From Zootoca vivipara (Eukaryota): 64,000 nt of DNA. The position numbers were made by a program. Of this stretch, positions 1 through 18,800 are shown piece after piece. Each line of letters starts with the position of its first letter. Positions within the stretch are counted from its first letter, which is position 1. The stretch covers positions 9,424,001 to 9,488,000 of the forward strand of contig NC_083282.1 in the NCBI RefSeq assembly GCF_963506605.1, given 5' to 3'.

Positions 1-2138
1 AAGGATGCCACAACAGGCAGCAGCAAGCGTGTCGTCCACCACCGGCACCTACCCACCTTGACAGCTCGCTCATCTTTGATTTTTTCCACCTCAATTAATT
101 TCCGGTCGCAGAGCTCCCAGCAGTTTGGCGACAGGATAATTTCACTTGCTTTCGCCAAGTTCTGGGCCAACCGCACTTCATCCACTGCCCGACCGATTAC
201 CAGGAAATACTGGTGCCTGTTGTCTCCGACCACAACTTTTGAGATGTGACCTGCAGATAGTCCTGGAGAAAGGTACAACATCGTAATCCATTTGAACACA
301 TCACAGAAATGGCTAGATTAACAAAGGAGAGAATGCATGAATGAATGAAAACATATAAACAAAACAAAAATCAGGCAAGATTCCTGATTAATTGTCCAAG
401 AGCATTTATTTAGTAGTTGGGGATTGAAATAATATTTGCTGAAGCAAAAGACGTTTGTTAAGCATCCCAGGTATAACATGAAATCATACATGGCAATGGA
501 AATGAATTCAATAGTTCTCATTTTGCATGGAAATAATTCCCACCATATCCAGGACCATAGCATACCCTCTAGTCGGTTGTTAAGCTGGGACTTAATGGTC
601 TTAAGGGTAAGGGGTATTTAAGTCTATCAAACTATTGTCTCTTTTCTGACTTGGCCCTTCCCTTAGGCTTGCCATATTTCAAAAAGTGAAAATCCGGAAA
701 TAAAAGTTGTTGAGCAATTTTAAGGACATTCACCCGAGAATCTACATTCCTGACATGGGCTGTCATATGTCCGGATTCTCCTAGACATTTCAGCGATTAC
801 CGCCCAGACACTGTTTCCAACGGCCAATTCCCAGGTATGTCTGGGAAATTCCAGAAGTATGGGAGCCCACCGTTTCCTCCTTTTATCTCCTTACAGTTGG
901 GGAGAACAAGGAGCTACTTTGTGAAAGGAACAGTTAACTAAGGGCTCATCGACACCTTGCAGGGGTCCATGAGGTTTTCTACGTGCCCCGTGCAGTTTTG
1001 ACTTTGCCCTGCCTCTTTCCCTGGGGAAAGCCACTCCGTAGCACTGAATTGGAGCCCATGCCAATGTGTGGGAAACCTGACGGATGTTTGCTCTGATTCC
1101 GCAGGAAAGAGCTGGTTTTCCTGGGGGCAAGCAGCAGGACAAGCAGGACTGTGGATGAGCCCTGGCAGACCATGGGAGGAATAGAAGAGATTGTGTAATG
1201 CATGGCTGTTAAGTGAGAGGGATTGCCTGCTGGCTAGAACAAGGGGTTAATTCCATCAACGGTGTCTCTGAAAAATTTTACGCATCCCTTGGGAAGACAG
1301 GGTTAGGGTTAGGGTTAGGGTTAGGGAAGAAGCAAAGATCCCCAGTGTCAAAGCAATGATTCTTCAACATCAACTTCGTTGGACTGGTCATGTTGTGCGG
1401 ATGCCTGGTTATCGTCTTCCAAAGCAGCTACTCTATTCCAAACTTTAAAATGGAAAGCGTAATGCTGGTGGTCAACAGAAGGGTTTAAAGACTCTCTCAA
1501 AGCAAATCTTTAAAAAATGTAGTATAAACGCCGACAACTGGGAAACACTGGACTGCGAGTGCTCCAATTGGAGAACAGCCTTTACCAAAGGTGCGATGGA
1601 CTGTGAAAGCGCTCGAACTCGGGATGAAAGGGCGAAATGTGCTAAGAGGAAGGCATGCTTGGCAAACCCTCACCATGATCAACTCCCACCCAGAAACCTA
1701 TGTCCCCACTGTGGAAGGACGTGTGGATCCAGAATTGGCCTCCACGGTCACTTATGGACTCACTGTTAAGACCATGTTCATGGAAGACAATCTTACTTGG
1801 CTACGAGTGATCGCTAAAGAAGAAGAACCAGGGGGGGAATTATAGCAAGGACCCTGAGTGTGTTCCTGCCTTGCTGTGCCAGCCTGTCCTCTGGTCTCTC
1901 TCAGGCACAGGCACACATTTTGACTTTCCACGCATCACCGGCTCTGAGCTCCAGGTAGGGGAGGATGCAGTACCTATCTTAACGCGCAGCTCCAGTCCCA
2001 CCTCCGTATCGCGAACCCCGTACTCTTGCTGGATGCTGAAGCTACATTTCAGAGCCAGAGTGATGATATCATTTATATGGCATCGCTCCACCTTCCAGAG
2101 TGCCAGCAATGCATCCCCTACAGAAGCCAGAGATAGTA

Positions 2139-2180
<42 letters not shown>

Positions 2181-15800: not shown

Positions 15801-18800
15801 CAGATGGTACCTAACACCACGGAAAGTAGCCCAGATACGCCCAGGAACCTCACCAAAATGTTGGAGAGGATGCACCTCCACAGGCACTTACCTCCACATG
15901 TGGTGGGAATGTCCCCAAATCCAACACTTCTGGACATCAATCATACAAGAAATATGCAAAATAGCTGAGCAAGTCACCCCAGAACTGGCCCTACTAAACA
16001 TCTTCCAAGATAATAATGCCCTCTCACATCACAAAGAGCTCATAACCCACCTCCTCAGTAGCCAGAACCATCATAGCCAGACACTGGGGAGACCTGTCAG
16101 GAGTAGGCATGGAGCAATGGTATCCAATAGTATGGGAAACAGCCTTATTAGAAAAACCAACCAATAAACTGGCACTGACACAGGGACAAATAGAAGCAGG
16201 CACCTTCACCCCGGTATGGTTCCCCTTTATCACGTACACAGCCCAACAAGACAACGACAAGAATCCGCCAACAGCATACAAATCAATCTGGCTAACCTAA
16301 TCCAACACACACACACACACACACCACTCACACACAAAAACAAACCTCACTACAGCCAACCAAAGACAACCAACCACACCCTAGGCCACCCCCAACCTCT
16401 CTCATCACCAAGGAAATACAACAAGCGAATAGTAAGAGAACCCACACAAGTGACGCTGACACAGAACCCCACACATACACTAAGTAGAAGAATGGAAGCA
16501 TTGCCACCCCACCCCACTCACCATTCCCCTCCCCCTATTTTCTTCCTAACCTATCACTGTATGCAATGCTAGGAGAGGTTGCAAAACAGCGCCCTCTAGC
16601 GGCGGCTACACTGGTACTGCATCTAGGAAAGCTCCCCTCTCCACAGCATCTCAGCTCAGCTTTCCAGACTGGGCCAAGTGGAGGTGGGGGCTCGCCTGGA
16701 TAGGAGATGGGGAGAGGAGGGGGCGGGATAGGTCATGGGTTGGTACTGGTTATGCCCAGCCACAGGGATAAGCCGGGGTGGAGGGAGGAGGGGATGGGAT
16801 ACCTAATGGGTCGGGACAGGGTAGGGGGAGTCACAGGGATGAGCCTGTATAAACAGAACACATGTAAAACATTTCAACAAAATGAAGGGGGACTCTGAAG
16901 ATGAGGGGTCTGAAGGGGGACTCTGAGGGTCCATTTAACAGACTGAGCCACAGCAACACGTGGCCGGGCCAGCTAGTCTTTAATAAAAATGTATTAAAAG
17001 AAAAACGAGTGTCACACATGGAGTGATGAGGGAGAAAGGAGACACCCATCAAGCCAGTCAGATCAGCCACATCAGCCCTGCTGACCAATTGAGTGACAGA
17101 TGTCATAGCCAGATCACCCTTGGATTCCACCCACTAACATGGGTTAATAATAGCTTTTCATTCAGTATTCACCAAGACAATTATTTCGGAAGGATTACCA
17201 ACACCCCAACCCCCCCAAAAAACCCAACCTCAGTTGCAGAAATATTTTCCCCAAAAGTGATGGAGAATTCTGTCTCCCCCTCCAAGAATATTTGGCCCCT
17301 GGGAATGGGTCCAGTAATCAGTCTATTGGGCAGTAAGCACTCTAGCCTGCCATTTTAGATGCTTAGTAGAAAGACAACAAACAAAAATGCTGATTCATTT
17401 TTGTTTCCTGAAATGTATGGTATATACCACTTGCTTACCTTCCAAGTCCCGGACTGCAGAATCCGGGACCGGCAGCCGTGTGACACCGGAAGTTGTGTCG
17501 ACGTAACTTCCGGTGTCGTTTTGCCCTTCTATGGGCACCAAAAATGGCCGCCGCCGGCTTCGAAAGTCGCTTCTACGCATGTCAGGAACTGCATCGACGC
17601 AACTTCCGGTGTCGCTCTGCCCATCTATGGGCACAAAAAATGGCCGCCGCCAACACCGGAAGTCGCGTCTATGCACTTCCGGACATGCGTAGATGCGACT
17701 TTTGAAGCCGGCGGCGGCCATTTTTGTTGCCCATAGAAGGGCAAATCAGAAAGAAAAAAATGGCCGCCGGCAGGAGAAAATAACGGAGAAAAACGGGAGA
17801 CAAAGTGATACGGGGGACCACTGGGAAAAGGTAAGTAAAAATGGGGGGTTTCCTGGGGAAAACGGGGTACTTGGCAGCTATGCACTTGCCTGGAACAAAC
17901 ATGACGCAAGTTAGGTCTGAGTTTAAAGGGAAGGGTGTCTTCCTGGGTCTGGAGAGGACCAAGGCCACAGGCCTGCAGACAGGTCCTTAATTGACATGTT
18001 GTTTTATGCACAAGTCGAGACTTGTCACCCTTGTGTTTCTTCTGCAGACTCTGACAACGTCACCTGTTACAGCCCAGCTTTTGTGCATGACTTGAAGATG
18101 CTGGAAGAGGCACAGGAGCAACTTAATTATAAATGCTTCATCCATTTTGATGACCAAGACTATCTTTTCCTGGGGCTGGTTGGGTTCTGCATCTTCTCTG
18201 CCGGTACAGTGTTTGCTTGGCTCTTGGGAGTTTGCGCGGCTGTGTATGAATTCTTAACTGGGACAGGAGATGAAGACGAAGAGGACAGGGGCGAATGAGC
18301 CTAGTAGACTCTGAAAATGGGCTTGGTGATATATTGAGAGCGTCATCCTACGTATCTTTACTTGGAAGTAAGCCCCACTGATCACAGTGGGACTAAGACT
18401 GCAGTCCACCACACATGTCTTAGGAAGCAATTCTTTTTTTAAAACAGTGGGGCATATTTCGGAGTAAACAAGCGTAAAATGCCGGAAAATGAAGACATCC
18501 TCAGAATCATATTTGAAACTCTATGACAGCAAATGCCAGCAAATTACCTTACTGGAATAGTTTGGCTTTGGAGAGTGATATTATTCTGTTAAGATGTTGC
18601 TACTATGCCTGGCGCTAGATTGGAGCGCAGCTTTCCTCATATTTGGTAATGGCTCAGAATGGCTCTTTACTTGCAATAGAAATATTATTAGCGAGATGCA
18701 ATGCGATAGCAACCCTTTCAGATGCTTACTGAAAACATGAGATGTGAAGTGCACAAAATAAGTTTCTAGCACGAACACTGCTAACTGCCAAGGAAAGACG

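What the first reader, a model, noticed from the sequence alone, without database searches (positions are those of the whole stretch)
57..18298. ADCY10-like gene head-to-head with the LRRC52 pair: candidate sperm-signalling cluster
Seen: the ADCY10 ATG (5734, -) and the LRRC52-A ATG (8717, +) diverge only about 3 kb apart. Established: sAC (bicarbonate-driven cAMP) and Slo3/LRRC52 (pH-gated K+ current) both act in mammalian sperm capacitation, but human ADCY10 lies beside MPC2/DCAF6, megabases from LRRC52, whose upstream neighbour is RXRG. Inference: this may be an additional ADCY10 paralog or a rearranged locus that places cyclase and channel subunits under shared testis regulation.
Basis: partly seen in the sequence, partly recalled or inferred. 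Interest (0 to 1): 0.68.

Follow-up and report, generated by a model that had tools for sequence, protein, structure and literature searches.

The report
Lizard ADCY10 beside two LRRC52 genes
In the common lizard the sperm cyclase gene ADCY10 really does sit head-to-head with two LRRC52 genes, but this looks like old inherited gene order shared with other reptiles, and nothing here shows the genes are regulated together.

Summary
The ADCY10 ATG is at 5734 (-) and the first LRRC52 ATG at 8717 (+), 2,983 bp apart. All exons match Zootoca vivipara RefSeq proteins at 100% or nearly so.

The cyclase is the ordinary ADCY10 orthologue, not an extra paralogue.

The "pair" is unequal. The distal copy, B, is the conserved canonical LRRC52. 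The copy next to ADCY10, A, belongs to a fast-evolving clade seen only in squamates, from gecko to snakes. No searched paper holds both LRRC52 and lizard.

Protein accession numbers are consecutive or nearly so for the three genes in two Podarcis species, a skink and two snakes. LRRC52 and ADCY10 are also consecutive in one turtle. This suggests the adjacency is old sauropsid synteny, not a recent rearrangement.

MGST3-like exons follow downstream, as in mammals. In cattle ADCY10 and LRRC52 lie about 2.5 Mb apart on one chromosome.

The 3-kb spacer has no CpG island and is 39% interspersed repeat. In iguanians copy A sits on a different chromosome from B.

Shared testis regulation is untested. 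No eukaryotic genome or expression data were on hand.

The parts
5582..5734 (-). ADCY10 first coding exon (aa 1-51, holds the FVDISG metal-site motif)
   Evidence: 100% to Zootoca ADCY10 P0264 aa 1-51. Matches human sAC residues 12-51, E 1.2e-12. ATG read directly.
4936..5046 (-). ADCY10 coding exon 2 (about aa 49-85; ends approximate)
   Evidence: tblastn of P0264 and P0078. GTAAGT donor follows.
3389..3442 (-). ADCY10 coding exon 3 (about aa 86-103, GGDVLKFAGDA motif; ends approximate)
   Evidence: tblastn of P0264, E 0.001 with word size 2. Missed at default settings.
1963..2118 (-). ADCY10 coding exon 4 (about aa 99-150; ends approximate)
   Evidence: tblastn E 1e-25
57..263 (-). ADCY10 coding exon 5 (aa 147-215, VDEVRLAQ with the Arg aligned to human R176)
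   Evidence: 100% to P0264. Matches human sAC 143-216, E 4e-29. GT donor directly after 57.
5735..8716 (.). Divergent spacer between the two start codons (2,982 bp)
   Evidence: No 500-bp window passes GC>0.55 with CpG o/e>0.6. 1,158 of 2,982 bp recur elsewhere in the window. (AC)23(AT)20 microsatellite at 7472-7557. No full CRE octamer. Transcription start sites unknown.
8717..9356 (+). LRRC52-A exon 1 (signal peptide, LRRNT, six LRRs, start of LRRCT)
   Evidence: 100% to P0001 aa 1-213. Pfam LRR_8 2.7e-16. GTGAGA donor.
10505..10762 (+). LRRC52-A exon 2 (end of LRRCT, transmembrane helix, acidic tail ending YSPI, stop)
   Evidence: 100% to P0001 aa 214-298. Model helix 231-280.
13154..13814 (+). 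LRRC52-B exon 1 (canonical LRRC52)
   Evidence: 100% to Zootoca P0255 aa 1-220. 65-72% identical to bird, turtle and crocodilian LRRC52. Pfam LRR_8 1.7e-17.
18035..18298 (+). LRRC52-B exon 2 (LRRCT end, transmembrane helix, acidic tail, stop)
   Evidence: tblastn of P0255 aa 217-303, 95%. ORF ends at 18298.
25367..25483 (+). First coding exon of an MGST3-like (MAPEG family) gene, downstream synteny anchor
   Evidence: ATG-to-GTGAGG exon. A later exon at about 31390-31470 (+) gives Pfam MAPEG E 7.4e-5, 23.3 bits, just under the 23.4 cut-off. The specific name MGST3 rests on my recollection of the human protein. The Atlas look-up was uninformative.

Best explanation
The window is the Zootoca vivipara locus ADCY10(-) | LRRC52-A(+) | LRRC52-B(+) | MGST3-like(+).

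ADCY10 is the single canonical soluble adenylyl cyclase gene. Only its first five coding exons are in the window.

LRRC52-B is the conserved orthologue of vertebrate LRRC52, the gamma subunit of Slo3/BK potassium channels. LRRC52-A is an intact, rapidly evolving paralogue found across squamates. It most likely arose by tandem duplication of LRRC52 in the squamate stem lineage, next to ADCY10.

The ADCY10-LRRC52 adjacency is inherited gene order shared by many squamates and at least one turtle. Mammals carry the two genes about 2.5 Mb apart on the same chromosome.

Shown: the gene identities, geometry, clade structure and rate difference.

Inferred: adjacency in other species (from consecutive accession numbers), the timing of the duplication, and that both LRRC52 proteins act as channel gamma subunits. 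The simplest reading is that each gene has its own promoter and the adjacency has no functional meaning.
For: Gene identity and geometry.

Canonical ADCY10.
- In the 45-row tree Zootoca sits with Lacerta and Podarcis (support 100*) inside a squamate clade ordered like the species tree.
- The gecko and emydid-turtle duplicates are lineage-specific.
- Zootoca scores 580 bits over 459 aa against human sAC. The Moschus ADCY10-like protein scores 387 bits over 382 aa and the second Crocodylus protein 338 bits.
- FVDISG, GGDVLKFAGDA and VDEVR are kept.

LRRC52 clades.
- In the 64-row tree, clade B (18 squamate rows, 100/98*) has short branches.
- Clade A (20 squamate rows including a gecko, 100/100*) has a stem of 0.69.
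- All 38 squamate rows form one clade in the best tree, 77/68.
- A is less conserved than B in 10 of 10 species comparisons, for example Podarcis 84% against 93% and the gecko 46% against 81%.
- All 8 LRRNT/LRRCT cysteines are invariant in 18 of 18 aligned proteins, and A has its own conserved tail.
- The model of A has pLDDT 81.6. Among the rows listed, its highest query TM-score is to LRRC26 in the Slo1 complex (7yo3_B, 0.64).

Old synteny, from accession numbers.
- Zootoca: XP_034979455 (B), 457 (A), 458 (ADCY10). The window shows these genes are adjacent, which calibrates the proxy.
- Podarcis lilfordi: CAI5776516 (B), 517 (A), 518-520 (ADCY10).
- P. muralis: XP_028587908 (ADCY10), 909 (A), 910 (B).
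- Tiliqua: XP_066480622 (B), 623 (A), 624 (ADCY10).
- Candoia: ADCY10 ...965, A ...967.
- Thamnophis elegans: ADCY10 ...714, A ...717.
- The turtle Pangshura tecta: KAM9129107 (LRRC52), KAM9129108 (ADCY10).

Mammal comparison.
Against: Adjacency in other species rests on accession numbering, not on DNA.
- It failed to show closeness in Elgaria: A ...5796, B ...5705, ADCY10 ...9255.
- It failed in Erythrolamprus (A XP_070605151, ADCY10 XP_070604681) and in Anolis carolinensis (B XP_062835831, ADCY10 XP_062833884 / XP_008117859).
- It was only partial in Lacerta agilis: ADCY10 ...6969, B ...6971, A ...6893.
- It was only partial in Podarcis raffonei: B ...6938, ADCY10 ...7317-7318, A ...7323.
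- It was only partial in Emydura (27 apart), Carettochelys (98 apart) and Eublepharis (15 apart).
- One turtle with a submitter's annotation is thin support for 'sauropsid-wide'.

Other weaknesses.
- No canonical mammalian ADCY10 was in my protein set. All 14 other mammal rows were 73-94% identical to the Moschus protein P0154, which like 5 of them carries the GDILNITGNV form. Orthology to human ADCY10 therefore rests on score comparison, not on a tree.
- The sister position of clades A and B has weak support (77/68). An older duplication with losses elsewhere is not excluded. No tuatara LRRC52 was sampled.
- A published survey found no conserved synteny for sAC among vertebrate groups (PMC6660944, passage read). 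That fits mobility of this gene.
- Nothing here excludes co-regulation.
Confidence: 0.75

Rival explanations
1. The three genes form a co-regulated sperm-signalling cluster. A shared regulatory region in the 3-kb spacer, or a common chromatin domain, drives the cyclase and the channel subunits together in testis. Selection for that has kept them adjacent.
For: The orientation is divergent and the start codons are only 2,983 bp apart. The linkage appears long-lived, in squamates and a turtle. sAC, Slo3 and LRRC52 all act in mammalian sperm (passages in PMC8004680, and PMC6660944). Slo3 is present in reptiles and is mainly transcribed in anole testis (PMC5337896, passage). Lizards keep CatSper, sNHE and sAC. 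Copy A evolves fast, as many reproductive proteins do.
Against: No expression or chromatin data were available. The spacer has no CpG island, is 39% interspersed repeat or microsatellite and has no full CRE. In Sceloporus copy A is on a 334-Mb chromosome and B on a 251-Mb one. In Phrynocephalus they are on 17.5-Mb and 127-Mb contigs. In mammals the genes work in sperm while about 2.5 Mb apart. ADCY10 is also treated in the literature as a general metabolic sensor.
Confidence: 0.12
2. The cyclase gene is an extra ADCY10 paralogue, and the true orthologue lies elsewhere beside MPC2/DCAF6.
For: ADCY10 duplicates do exist in geckos and emydid turtles. A divergent ADCY10-like lineage exists in mammals and crocodile.
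Against: Among the 83 hits, lacertids gave one gene per species: Lacerta P0077, the Podarcis isoform cluster P0078 and Zootoca P0264. The gene follows the species tree. It keeps the functional residues and is closer to human sAC than the paralogues are. The word-based search is not exhaustive, so a second copy is not strictly excluded.
Confidence: 0.03
3. LRRC52-A is a decaying or functionless duplicate, and only B matters.
For: Long branches and low identity to other LRRC52 proteins, 42-48%.
Against: The reading frame is intact in all 20 clade-A rows, across roughly the whole squamate radiation. All structural cysteines and the LRR consensus are invariant. A clade-specific tail (YYHP..K..E.E.EEY..I) is conserved from gecko to snake. 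The model is confident for an LRR solenoid plus transmembrane helix.
Confidence: 0.06
4. The adjacency is a Zootoca- or lacertid-specific rearrangement, or an assembly error.
For: Only this one genome was seen at the DNA level.
Against: The window has no gaps. The same three genes have consecutive identifiers in independent assemblies of Podarcis and Tiliqua, near-consecutive ones in two snakes, and consecutive ones in a turtle.
Confidence: 0.02

Closest known systems
Mammalian ADCY10 (soluble, bicarbonate-activated adenylyl cyclase; PDB 4CLF/4OYA)
   Same: The catalytic core aligns end to end, 580 bits over residues 12-469. The two metal-site Asp motifs and the Lys/Arg pair aligned to human K95 and R176 are present. 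The roles of those residues are recalled, not tested. The gene has the same multi-exon structure with small 5' exons.
   Different: The neighbour differs. Here it is LRRC52 head-to-head. In cattle, and by recollection in human, ADCY10 lies in the DCAF6-MPC2-MPZL1 block about 2.5 Mb from LRRC52.
Vertebrate LRRC52 (gamma2 subunit of Slo3/BK channels) and the LRRC26 structure in the Slo1 complex (7YO3, 8S3E)
   Same: Copy B falls in the canonical clade with short branches and is followed by MGST3-like exons as in mammals. Both copies have a signal peptide, LRRNT, six LRRs, LRRCT, one transmembrane helix, an acidic tail and two coding exons. A matches LRRC26 by sequence (E 5e-26) and by fold (TMq 0.64).
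   Different: Copy A forms a separate squamate-only clade. It is 2-3 times more diverged than B over the same species pairs and has its own C-terminal motif. No paper searched holds both LRRC52 and lizard (0 papers).
Classical bidirectional-promoter gene pairs
   Same: Divergent orientation.
   Different: The start codons are 2,983 bp apart, not under about 1 kb. There is no CpG island, and much of the spacer is transposon-derived.

Membership tests
ADCY10 / soluble adenylyl cyclase | Sequence match of the first catalytic domain to solved human sAC | tested here: met
   Window exons: E 4.3e-29 and 1.2e-12. Pfam found nothing on these two short pieces alone.
ADCY10 / soluble adenylyl cyclase | Metal-binding Asp motifs and the bicarbonate-site Lys/Arg (human D47, D99, K95, R176; roles recalled) | tested here: met
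   FVDISG, GGDVLKFAGDA and VDEVR are encoded in window exons and aligned to the human residues. Crocodile and turtle ADCY10 have N at the Lys position.
ADCY10 / soluble adenylyl cyclase | Second catalytic domain and long C-terminal P-loop/TPR region | not testable with these tools
   They lie outside the window. The RefSeq protein P0264 (1630 aa) aligns through human residue 469, but its DNA was not seen.
ADCY10 / soluble adenylyl cyclase | Orthology to mammalian ADCY10 rather than to the ADCY10-like paralogue | tested here: inconclusive
   The tree separates it from the paralogue group, with a long-branch warning. It scores higher against human sAC than the paralogues do. No canonical mammalian ADCY10 row was in the tree.
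LRRC52 (Slo3/BK gamma subunit family) | LRRNT, LRR and LRRCT ectodomain, single transmembrane helix, short tail | tested here: met
   Pfam LRR_8, LRR_4 and LRR_1 on both copies. LRRNT scored 24.4 and 24.3 bits, just under its 25.8 cut-off. Invariant cysteines. Model of A with six strands and helix 231-280.
LRRC52 (Slo3/BK gamma subunit family) | Falls within the LRRC52 orthologue clade | tested here: met
   Copy B: clade of 18 squamate rows, 100/98*, next to turtle, bird and crocodilian LRRC52. 65-72% identity to them.
LRRC52 (Slo3/BK gamma subunit family) | Copy A is an LRRC52 orthologue | tested here: not met
   It forms its own squamate-only clade (100/100*, stem 0.69) alongside B in the same species, so it is a paralogue. 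All named hits are nevertheless LRRC52 or LRRC52-like.
LRRC52 (Slo3/BK gamma subunit family) | Shifts Slo3/Slo1 gating; testis expression | not testable with these tools
   No expression or electrophysiology data. No lizard Slo3 sequence was fetched.
Bidirectional-promoter pair / co-regulated cluster | Start sites under about 1 kb apart in a shared CpG-rich promoter | tested here: not met
   ATG to ATG is 2,983 bp. 0 of the 7 500-bp windows from 5501 to 9000 qualify as CpG island. Transcription start sites are unknown.
Bidirectional-promoter pair / co-regulated cluster | Linkage kept wherever the genes exist | tested here: inconclusive
   It appears kept in lacertids, a skink, snakes and a turtle. 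It is broken for copy A in Sceloporus and Phrynocephalus and for ADCY10 versus LRRC52 in cattle.

The most novel reading that the evidence does not exclude
sAC and the Slo3 gamma-subunit gene have been physical neighbours since before turtles and squamates split. In squamates a rapidly evolving second LRRC52 arose right beside the ADCY10 promoter. On this reading the trio is a genuine co-regulated sperm-activation module, and copy A is a lineage-specific tuner of the sperm K+ current under sexual selection.
Probability: 0.1. Interest if true: 0.6.

Novelty: new member of a known kind. Interest (0 to 1): 0.3.

Why it matters
The cluster idea itself is probably ordinary synteny.

Two points have some value. 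First, squamates carry a second, fast-evolving LRRC52-type subunit that no searched paper mentions together with lizards. It is a ready candidate for how reptile sperm K+ currents are tuned. Second, the ADCY10-LRRC52 adjacency offers a conserved landmark for sAC in sauropsids, where a published survey reported no conserved synteny for this gene (PMC6660944).

Tried and rejected
Pfam on single short exons gave nothing for 5 of 8 pieces: both ADCY10 exons, both LRRC52 second exons and the first MGST3-like exon.

The Atlas look-up of the 39-aa MGST3-like exon gave only unnamed clusters, best score 0.84, so it was uninformative.

The paper search was badly framed (any 2 of 6 terms). None of its 20 listed rows held LRRC52. 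I replaced it.

One search gave 7 papers holding both LRRC52 and ADCY10. Judged from the listing only, none concerns gene order.

I looked for ALDH9A1, the mammalian neighbour of MGST3, in 31.7-64 kb. Among 252 ORFs of 55 aa or more, after dropping low-complexity ones, Pfam found only TEDC1 (2 ORFs) and a reverse transcriptase (1 ORF), and no aldehyde dehydrogenase. Short exons could have been missed.

At first I took the mammalian hits (58-63% identical in the exon) for canonical ADCY10. Searches showed they are the ADCY10-like paralogue.

The full CRE octamer has 0 matches in the window, with 0.32 expected, so it says nothing either way.

ARAGORN found no tRNA where Rfam reports one.

I did not use the complex predictor, the representative-protein search or the bacterial genome collection. 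None bears on gene order in vertebrates.
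Full report
**What is there.** The window holds no N.

On the minus strand an ATG at 5734 opens an exon that matches human soluble adenylyl cyclase residues 12-51. A second minus-strand exon in 57-263 matches residues 143-216. On the plus strand an ATG at 8717 opens a 213-codon exon with LRRNT and LRR domains, and a similar exon starts at 13154. The two start codons at 5734 and 8717 diverge and are 2,983 bp apart.

Where a full-length protein was needed I used the databases' own records.

**Gene identity.**
- LRRC52-A exon 1 is 100% identical to NCBI 'LRRC52-like [Zootoca vivipara]' (P0001, 298 aa). 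This is the best of 76 hits among 337 candidates. P0001 maps at 100% to 8717-9355 and 10505-10759.
- LRRC52-B maps to the second Zootoca LRRC52-like protein, P0255. Exon 1 (13154-13813) is 100% identical and exon 2 (18035-18295) is 95%.
- The Zootoca RefSeq ADCY10 (P0264, 1630 aa) maps to five minus-strand exons covering aa 1-215: 5734-5582, 5046-4936, 3442-3389, 2118-1963 and 263-57. The rest of the gene lies beyond the window's left edge.
- GT and AG signals sit within a few bases of the alignment ends.

**Is the cyclase an extra paralogue?** No sign of it.

The exon search returned 83 proteins among 166 candidates. Lacertids gave one gene each, confirmed by the cluster listing.

A 45-row tree (quick search, LG+G4) puts Zootoca with Lacerta and Podarcis inside a squamate clade that follows the species tree. 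The two gecko copies and the several emydid-turtle copies are lineage-specific duplicates.

A separate long-branched group holds the mammalian rows plus a second Crocodylus protein, and the program warns about that join. The Moschus protein P0154 and 5 other mammal rows carry GDILNITGNV in place of the GGD.LKFAGDA motif. The other 14 mammal rows are 73-94% identical to P0154. They are therefore the ADCY10-like paralogue, not the canonical gene.

Scores against human sAC:

| Protein | Bits | Aligned length |
|---|---|---|
| Zootoca ADCY10 (P0264) | 580 | 459 aa |
| Moschus ADCY10-like (P0154) | 387 | 382 aa |
| Second Crocodylus protein (P0146) | 338 | two stretches |

Zootoca ADCY10 also keeps the residues aligned to human D47, K95, D99 and R176. 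Their roles are from my memory of the structural papers.

No canonical mammalian ADCY10 reached my set, so orthology rests on these comparisons and not on a tree.

**The LRRC52 'pair' is unequal.**
- B's first exon is 65-72% identical to bird, turtle and crocodilian LRRC52 and 83% to Anolis LRRC52 (167 hits among 412 candidates, 120 listed).
- A's first exon is only 42-49% identical to turtle, crocodilian and bird LRRC52.
- In a 64-row maximum-likelihood tree, B lies in a short-branched clade of 18 squamate rows (100/98*).
- A lies in a second clade of 20 squamate rows (100/100*, stem 0.69). That clade includes a gecko, a skink, an anguid, an amphisbaenian, lacertids, snakes and iguanians.
- All 38 squamate rows form one clade in the best tree, with weak support of 77/68.

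The simplest history is one duplication in the squamate stem lineage followed by acceleration of A. An older origin is not excluded, and no tuatara LRRC52 was sampled.

Over the same species pairs A is less conserved than B in 10 of 10 comparisons.

A is not decaying. Its frame is intact in all 20 rows. The eight LRRNT/LRRCT cysteines and the LRR consensus are invariant in 18 of 18 aligned proteins. A has its own tail motif, conserved from gecko to snake.

A model of A has mean pLDDT 81.6 and shows a signal helix, six LRR strands and a long transmembrane helix. Its fold hits are generic LRR domains. Among the rows listed, the highest query TM-score (0.64) is to LRRC26 in the Slo1 complex.

**How old is the adjacency?** No eukaryotic genome collection was available, so I used accession numbers as a proxy. 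In Zootoca, where the DNA shows the genes to be neighbours, the numbers run consecutively, which calibrates the proxy.

| Species | LRRC52-B | LRRC52-A | ADCY10 |
|---|---|---|---|
| Zootoca vivipara | XP_034979455 | XP_034979457 | XP_034979458 |
| Podarcis lilfordi | CAI5776516 | CAI5776517 | CAI5776518-520 |
| Podarcis muralis | XP_028587910 | XP_028587909 | XP_028587908 |
| Tiliqua scincoides | XP_066480622 | XP_066480623 | XP_066480624 |
| Candoia aspera | not looked up | ...967 | ...965 |
| Thamnophis elegans | not looked up | ...717 | ...714 |
| Pangshura tecta (turtle) | KAM9129107 (single LRRC52) | none | KAM9129108 |

The proxy was silent or partial elsewhere:
- Elgaria: A and B 91 apart, ADCY10 thousands away.
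- Erythrolamprus: A and ADCY10 470 apart.
- Anolis carolinensis: B and ADCY10 carry unrelated numbers.
- Lacerta agilis: ADCY10 and B two apart, A 76 away.
- Podarcis raffonei: A and ADCY10 five apart, B about 380 away.
- Emydura: 27 apart.
- Carettochelys: 98 apart.
- Eublepharis: 15 apart.

Contig lengths show the genes share a chromosome or scaffold in every species where both were listed, including an 8.0-Mb Emydura scaffold.

I conclude, as an inference, that ADCY10-LRRC52 adjacency predates squamates. It is not a recent rearrangement.

**Comparison with mammals.** Published cattle tables give this order on BTA3: UCK2, TMCO1, ALDH9A1, MGST3, LRRC52, RXRG, at 3.0-3.5 Mb (PMC9774243, passages). 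On the same chromosome DCAF6 lies at 0.63 Mb and MPZL1 at 0.98 Mb, and both are listed with ADCY10 and MPC2 (PMC9178659, passages). That is the same chromosome, about 2.5 Mb apart, and it matches what I recall for human 1q24.

In the window, MGST3-like exons follow LRRC52-B on the same strand, at 25367-25483 and about 31.4 kb. The Pfam MAPEG match is just under its cut-off, and the name MGST3 is recalled. The LRRC52-to-MGST3 order is therefore shared with mammals. What differs is the upstream neighbour.

Romero and Nishigaki reported no conserved synteny for sAC among vertebrate groups, as data not shown (PMC6660944, passage).

**Shared regulation.** Nothing could be tested directly. The indirect signs are weak or negative.
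- The spacer has no CpG island. Only 2 of the 52 500-bp windows in 1-26000 qualify, both near 20.5-23 kb.
- 1,158 of its 2,982 bp recur elsewhere in the window as interspersed repeats.
- It holds an (AC)n(AT)n microsatellite.
- It has no full CRE.
- Transcription start sites are unknown. A non-coding ADCY10 leader exon could change the geometry.
- Copy A has left the neighbourhood in iguanians. In Sceloporus, A is on a 334-Mb chromosome and B on a 251-Mb one. In Phrynocephalus they are on 17.5-Mb and 127-Mb contigs.
- Mammals run the same sperm pathway with the genes far apart.

In favour of a functional link: lizards keep CatSper, sNHE and sAC. Slo3 is present in reptiles and is transcribed mainly in anole testis (PMC5337896, passage). 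LRRC52 loss impairs mouse fertility (PMC8004680, passage).

**Verdict.** The arrangement is real and correctly named. It is best read as inherited sauropsid gene order plus a squamate tandem duplicate, not as a new paralogue or a demonstrated regulatory cluster.

The modestly new item is the squamate-wide, fast-evolving LRRC52 paralogue. No paper in the searched library holds both LRRC52 and lizard (0 papers). The 4 papers with ADCY10 and lizard do not treat gene order, judged from the listing and from passages of two of them.

Still unchecked: DNA-level synteny in any other species, ADCY10 copy number in the whole Zootoca genome, expression, start sites, and the closed supplementary files.

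Noticed in passing
window 39703-40143 (+) and 42592-42903 (+): Two plus-strand ORFs match consecutive parts of Pfam TEDC1, tubulin epsilon and delta complex protein 1 (E 7.7e-15 at profile positions 1-54; E 4.3e-12 at positions 64-104). The gene after the MGST3-like exons is therefore TEDC1-like, not ALDH9A1 as in cattle. By recollection, human TEDC1 is on chromosome 14.
   Followed up: partly
window 16970-17127 (-): A 158-nt match to Rfam 7SK RNA (69.8 bits, gathering score 35) lies inside the LRRC52-B intron on the opposite strand. It resembles the 5' part of 7SK and is followed by a T run. It is probably a truncated 7SK pseudogene or derived repeat.
   Followed up: partly
window 23058-23131 (-): Rfam reports a tRNA-like match (42.7 bits) beside the CpG-rich block at 22.5-23 kb, but ARAGORN finds no tRNA. 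It may be a tRNA-derived SINE or a diverged tRNA gene.
   Followed up: partly
window 20501-21000 and 22501-23000: These are the only two CpG-island-like 500-bp windows in the first 26 kb (GC 0.66 and 0.71, CpG o/e 0.69 and 0.89). They lie upstream of the MGST3-like first coding exon. The first overlaps a 111-bp tandem duplication.
   Followed up: no
window 11887-12753 (+), 34328-35257 (+), 6183-6479 and other sites: Reverse-transcriptase ORFs lie between LRRC52-A and LRRC52-B and at 34.3 kb (Pfam RVT_1 5.9e-32). A roughly 300-bp element preceded by an AT-rich stretch has up to 6 hits elsewhere in the window and also occurs in the ADCY10-LRRC52 spacer. The locus is heavily seeded with transposon remains.
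   Followed up: partly
proteins P0144-P0159 and P0146 (not in the window): Mammals and a crocodile carry a divergent ADCY10-like paralogue. The Lys and the second metal Asp of the GGD.LKFAGDA motif read N (GDILNITGNV) in 6 mammal rows, and the Arg aligned to human R176 reads Q in 5 mammal rows. Turtle and crocodile canonical ADCY10 also have N at the Lys position.
   Followed up: partly
LRRC52-A tail, window about 10700-10759 (+): Clade-A proteins end in an acidic run followed by Y-x-x-I at the very C-terminus (YSPI in Zootoca, YRMI in most others). The two mammalian LRRC52 proteins aligned end in [YF]P.LI, while squamate B, turtle and bird tails lack this ending. This may be a tyrosine-based sorting signal. 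That reading is an untested inference.
   Followed up: no
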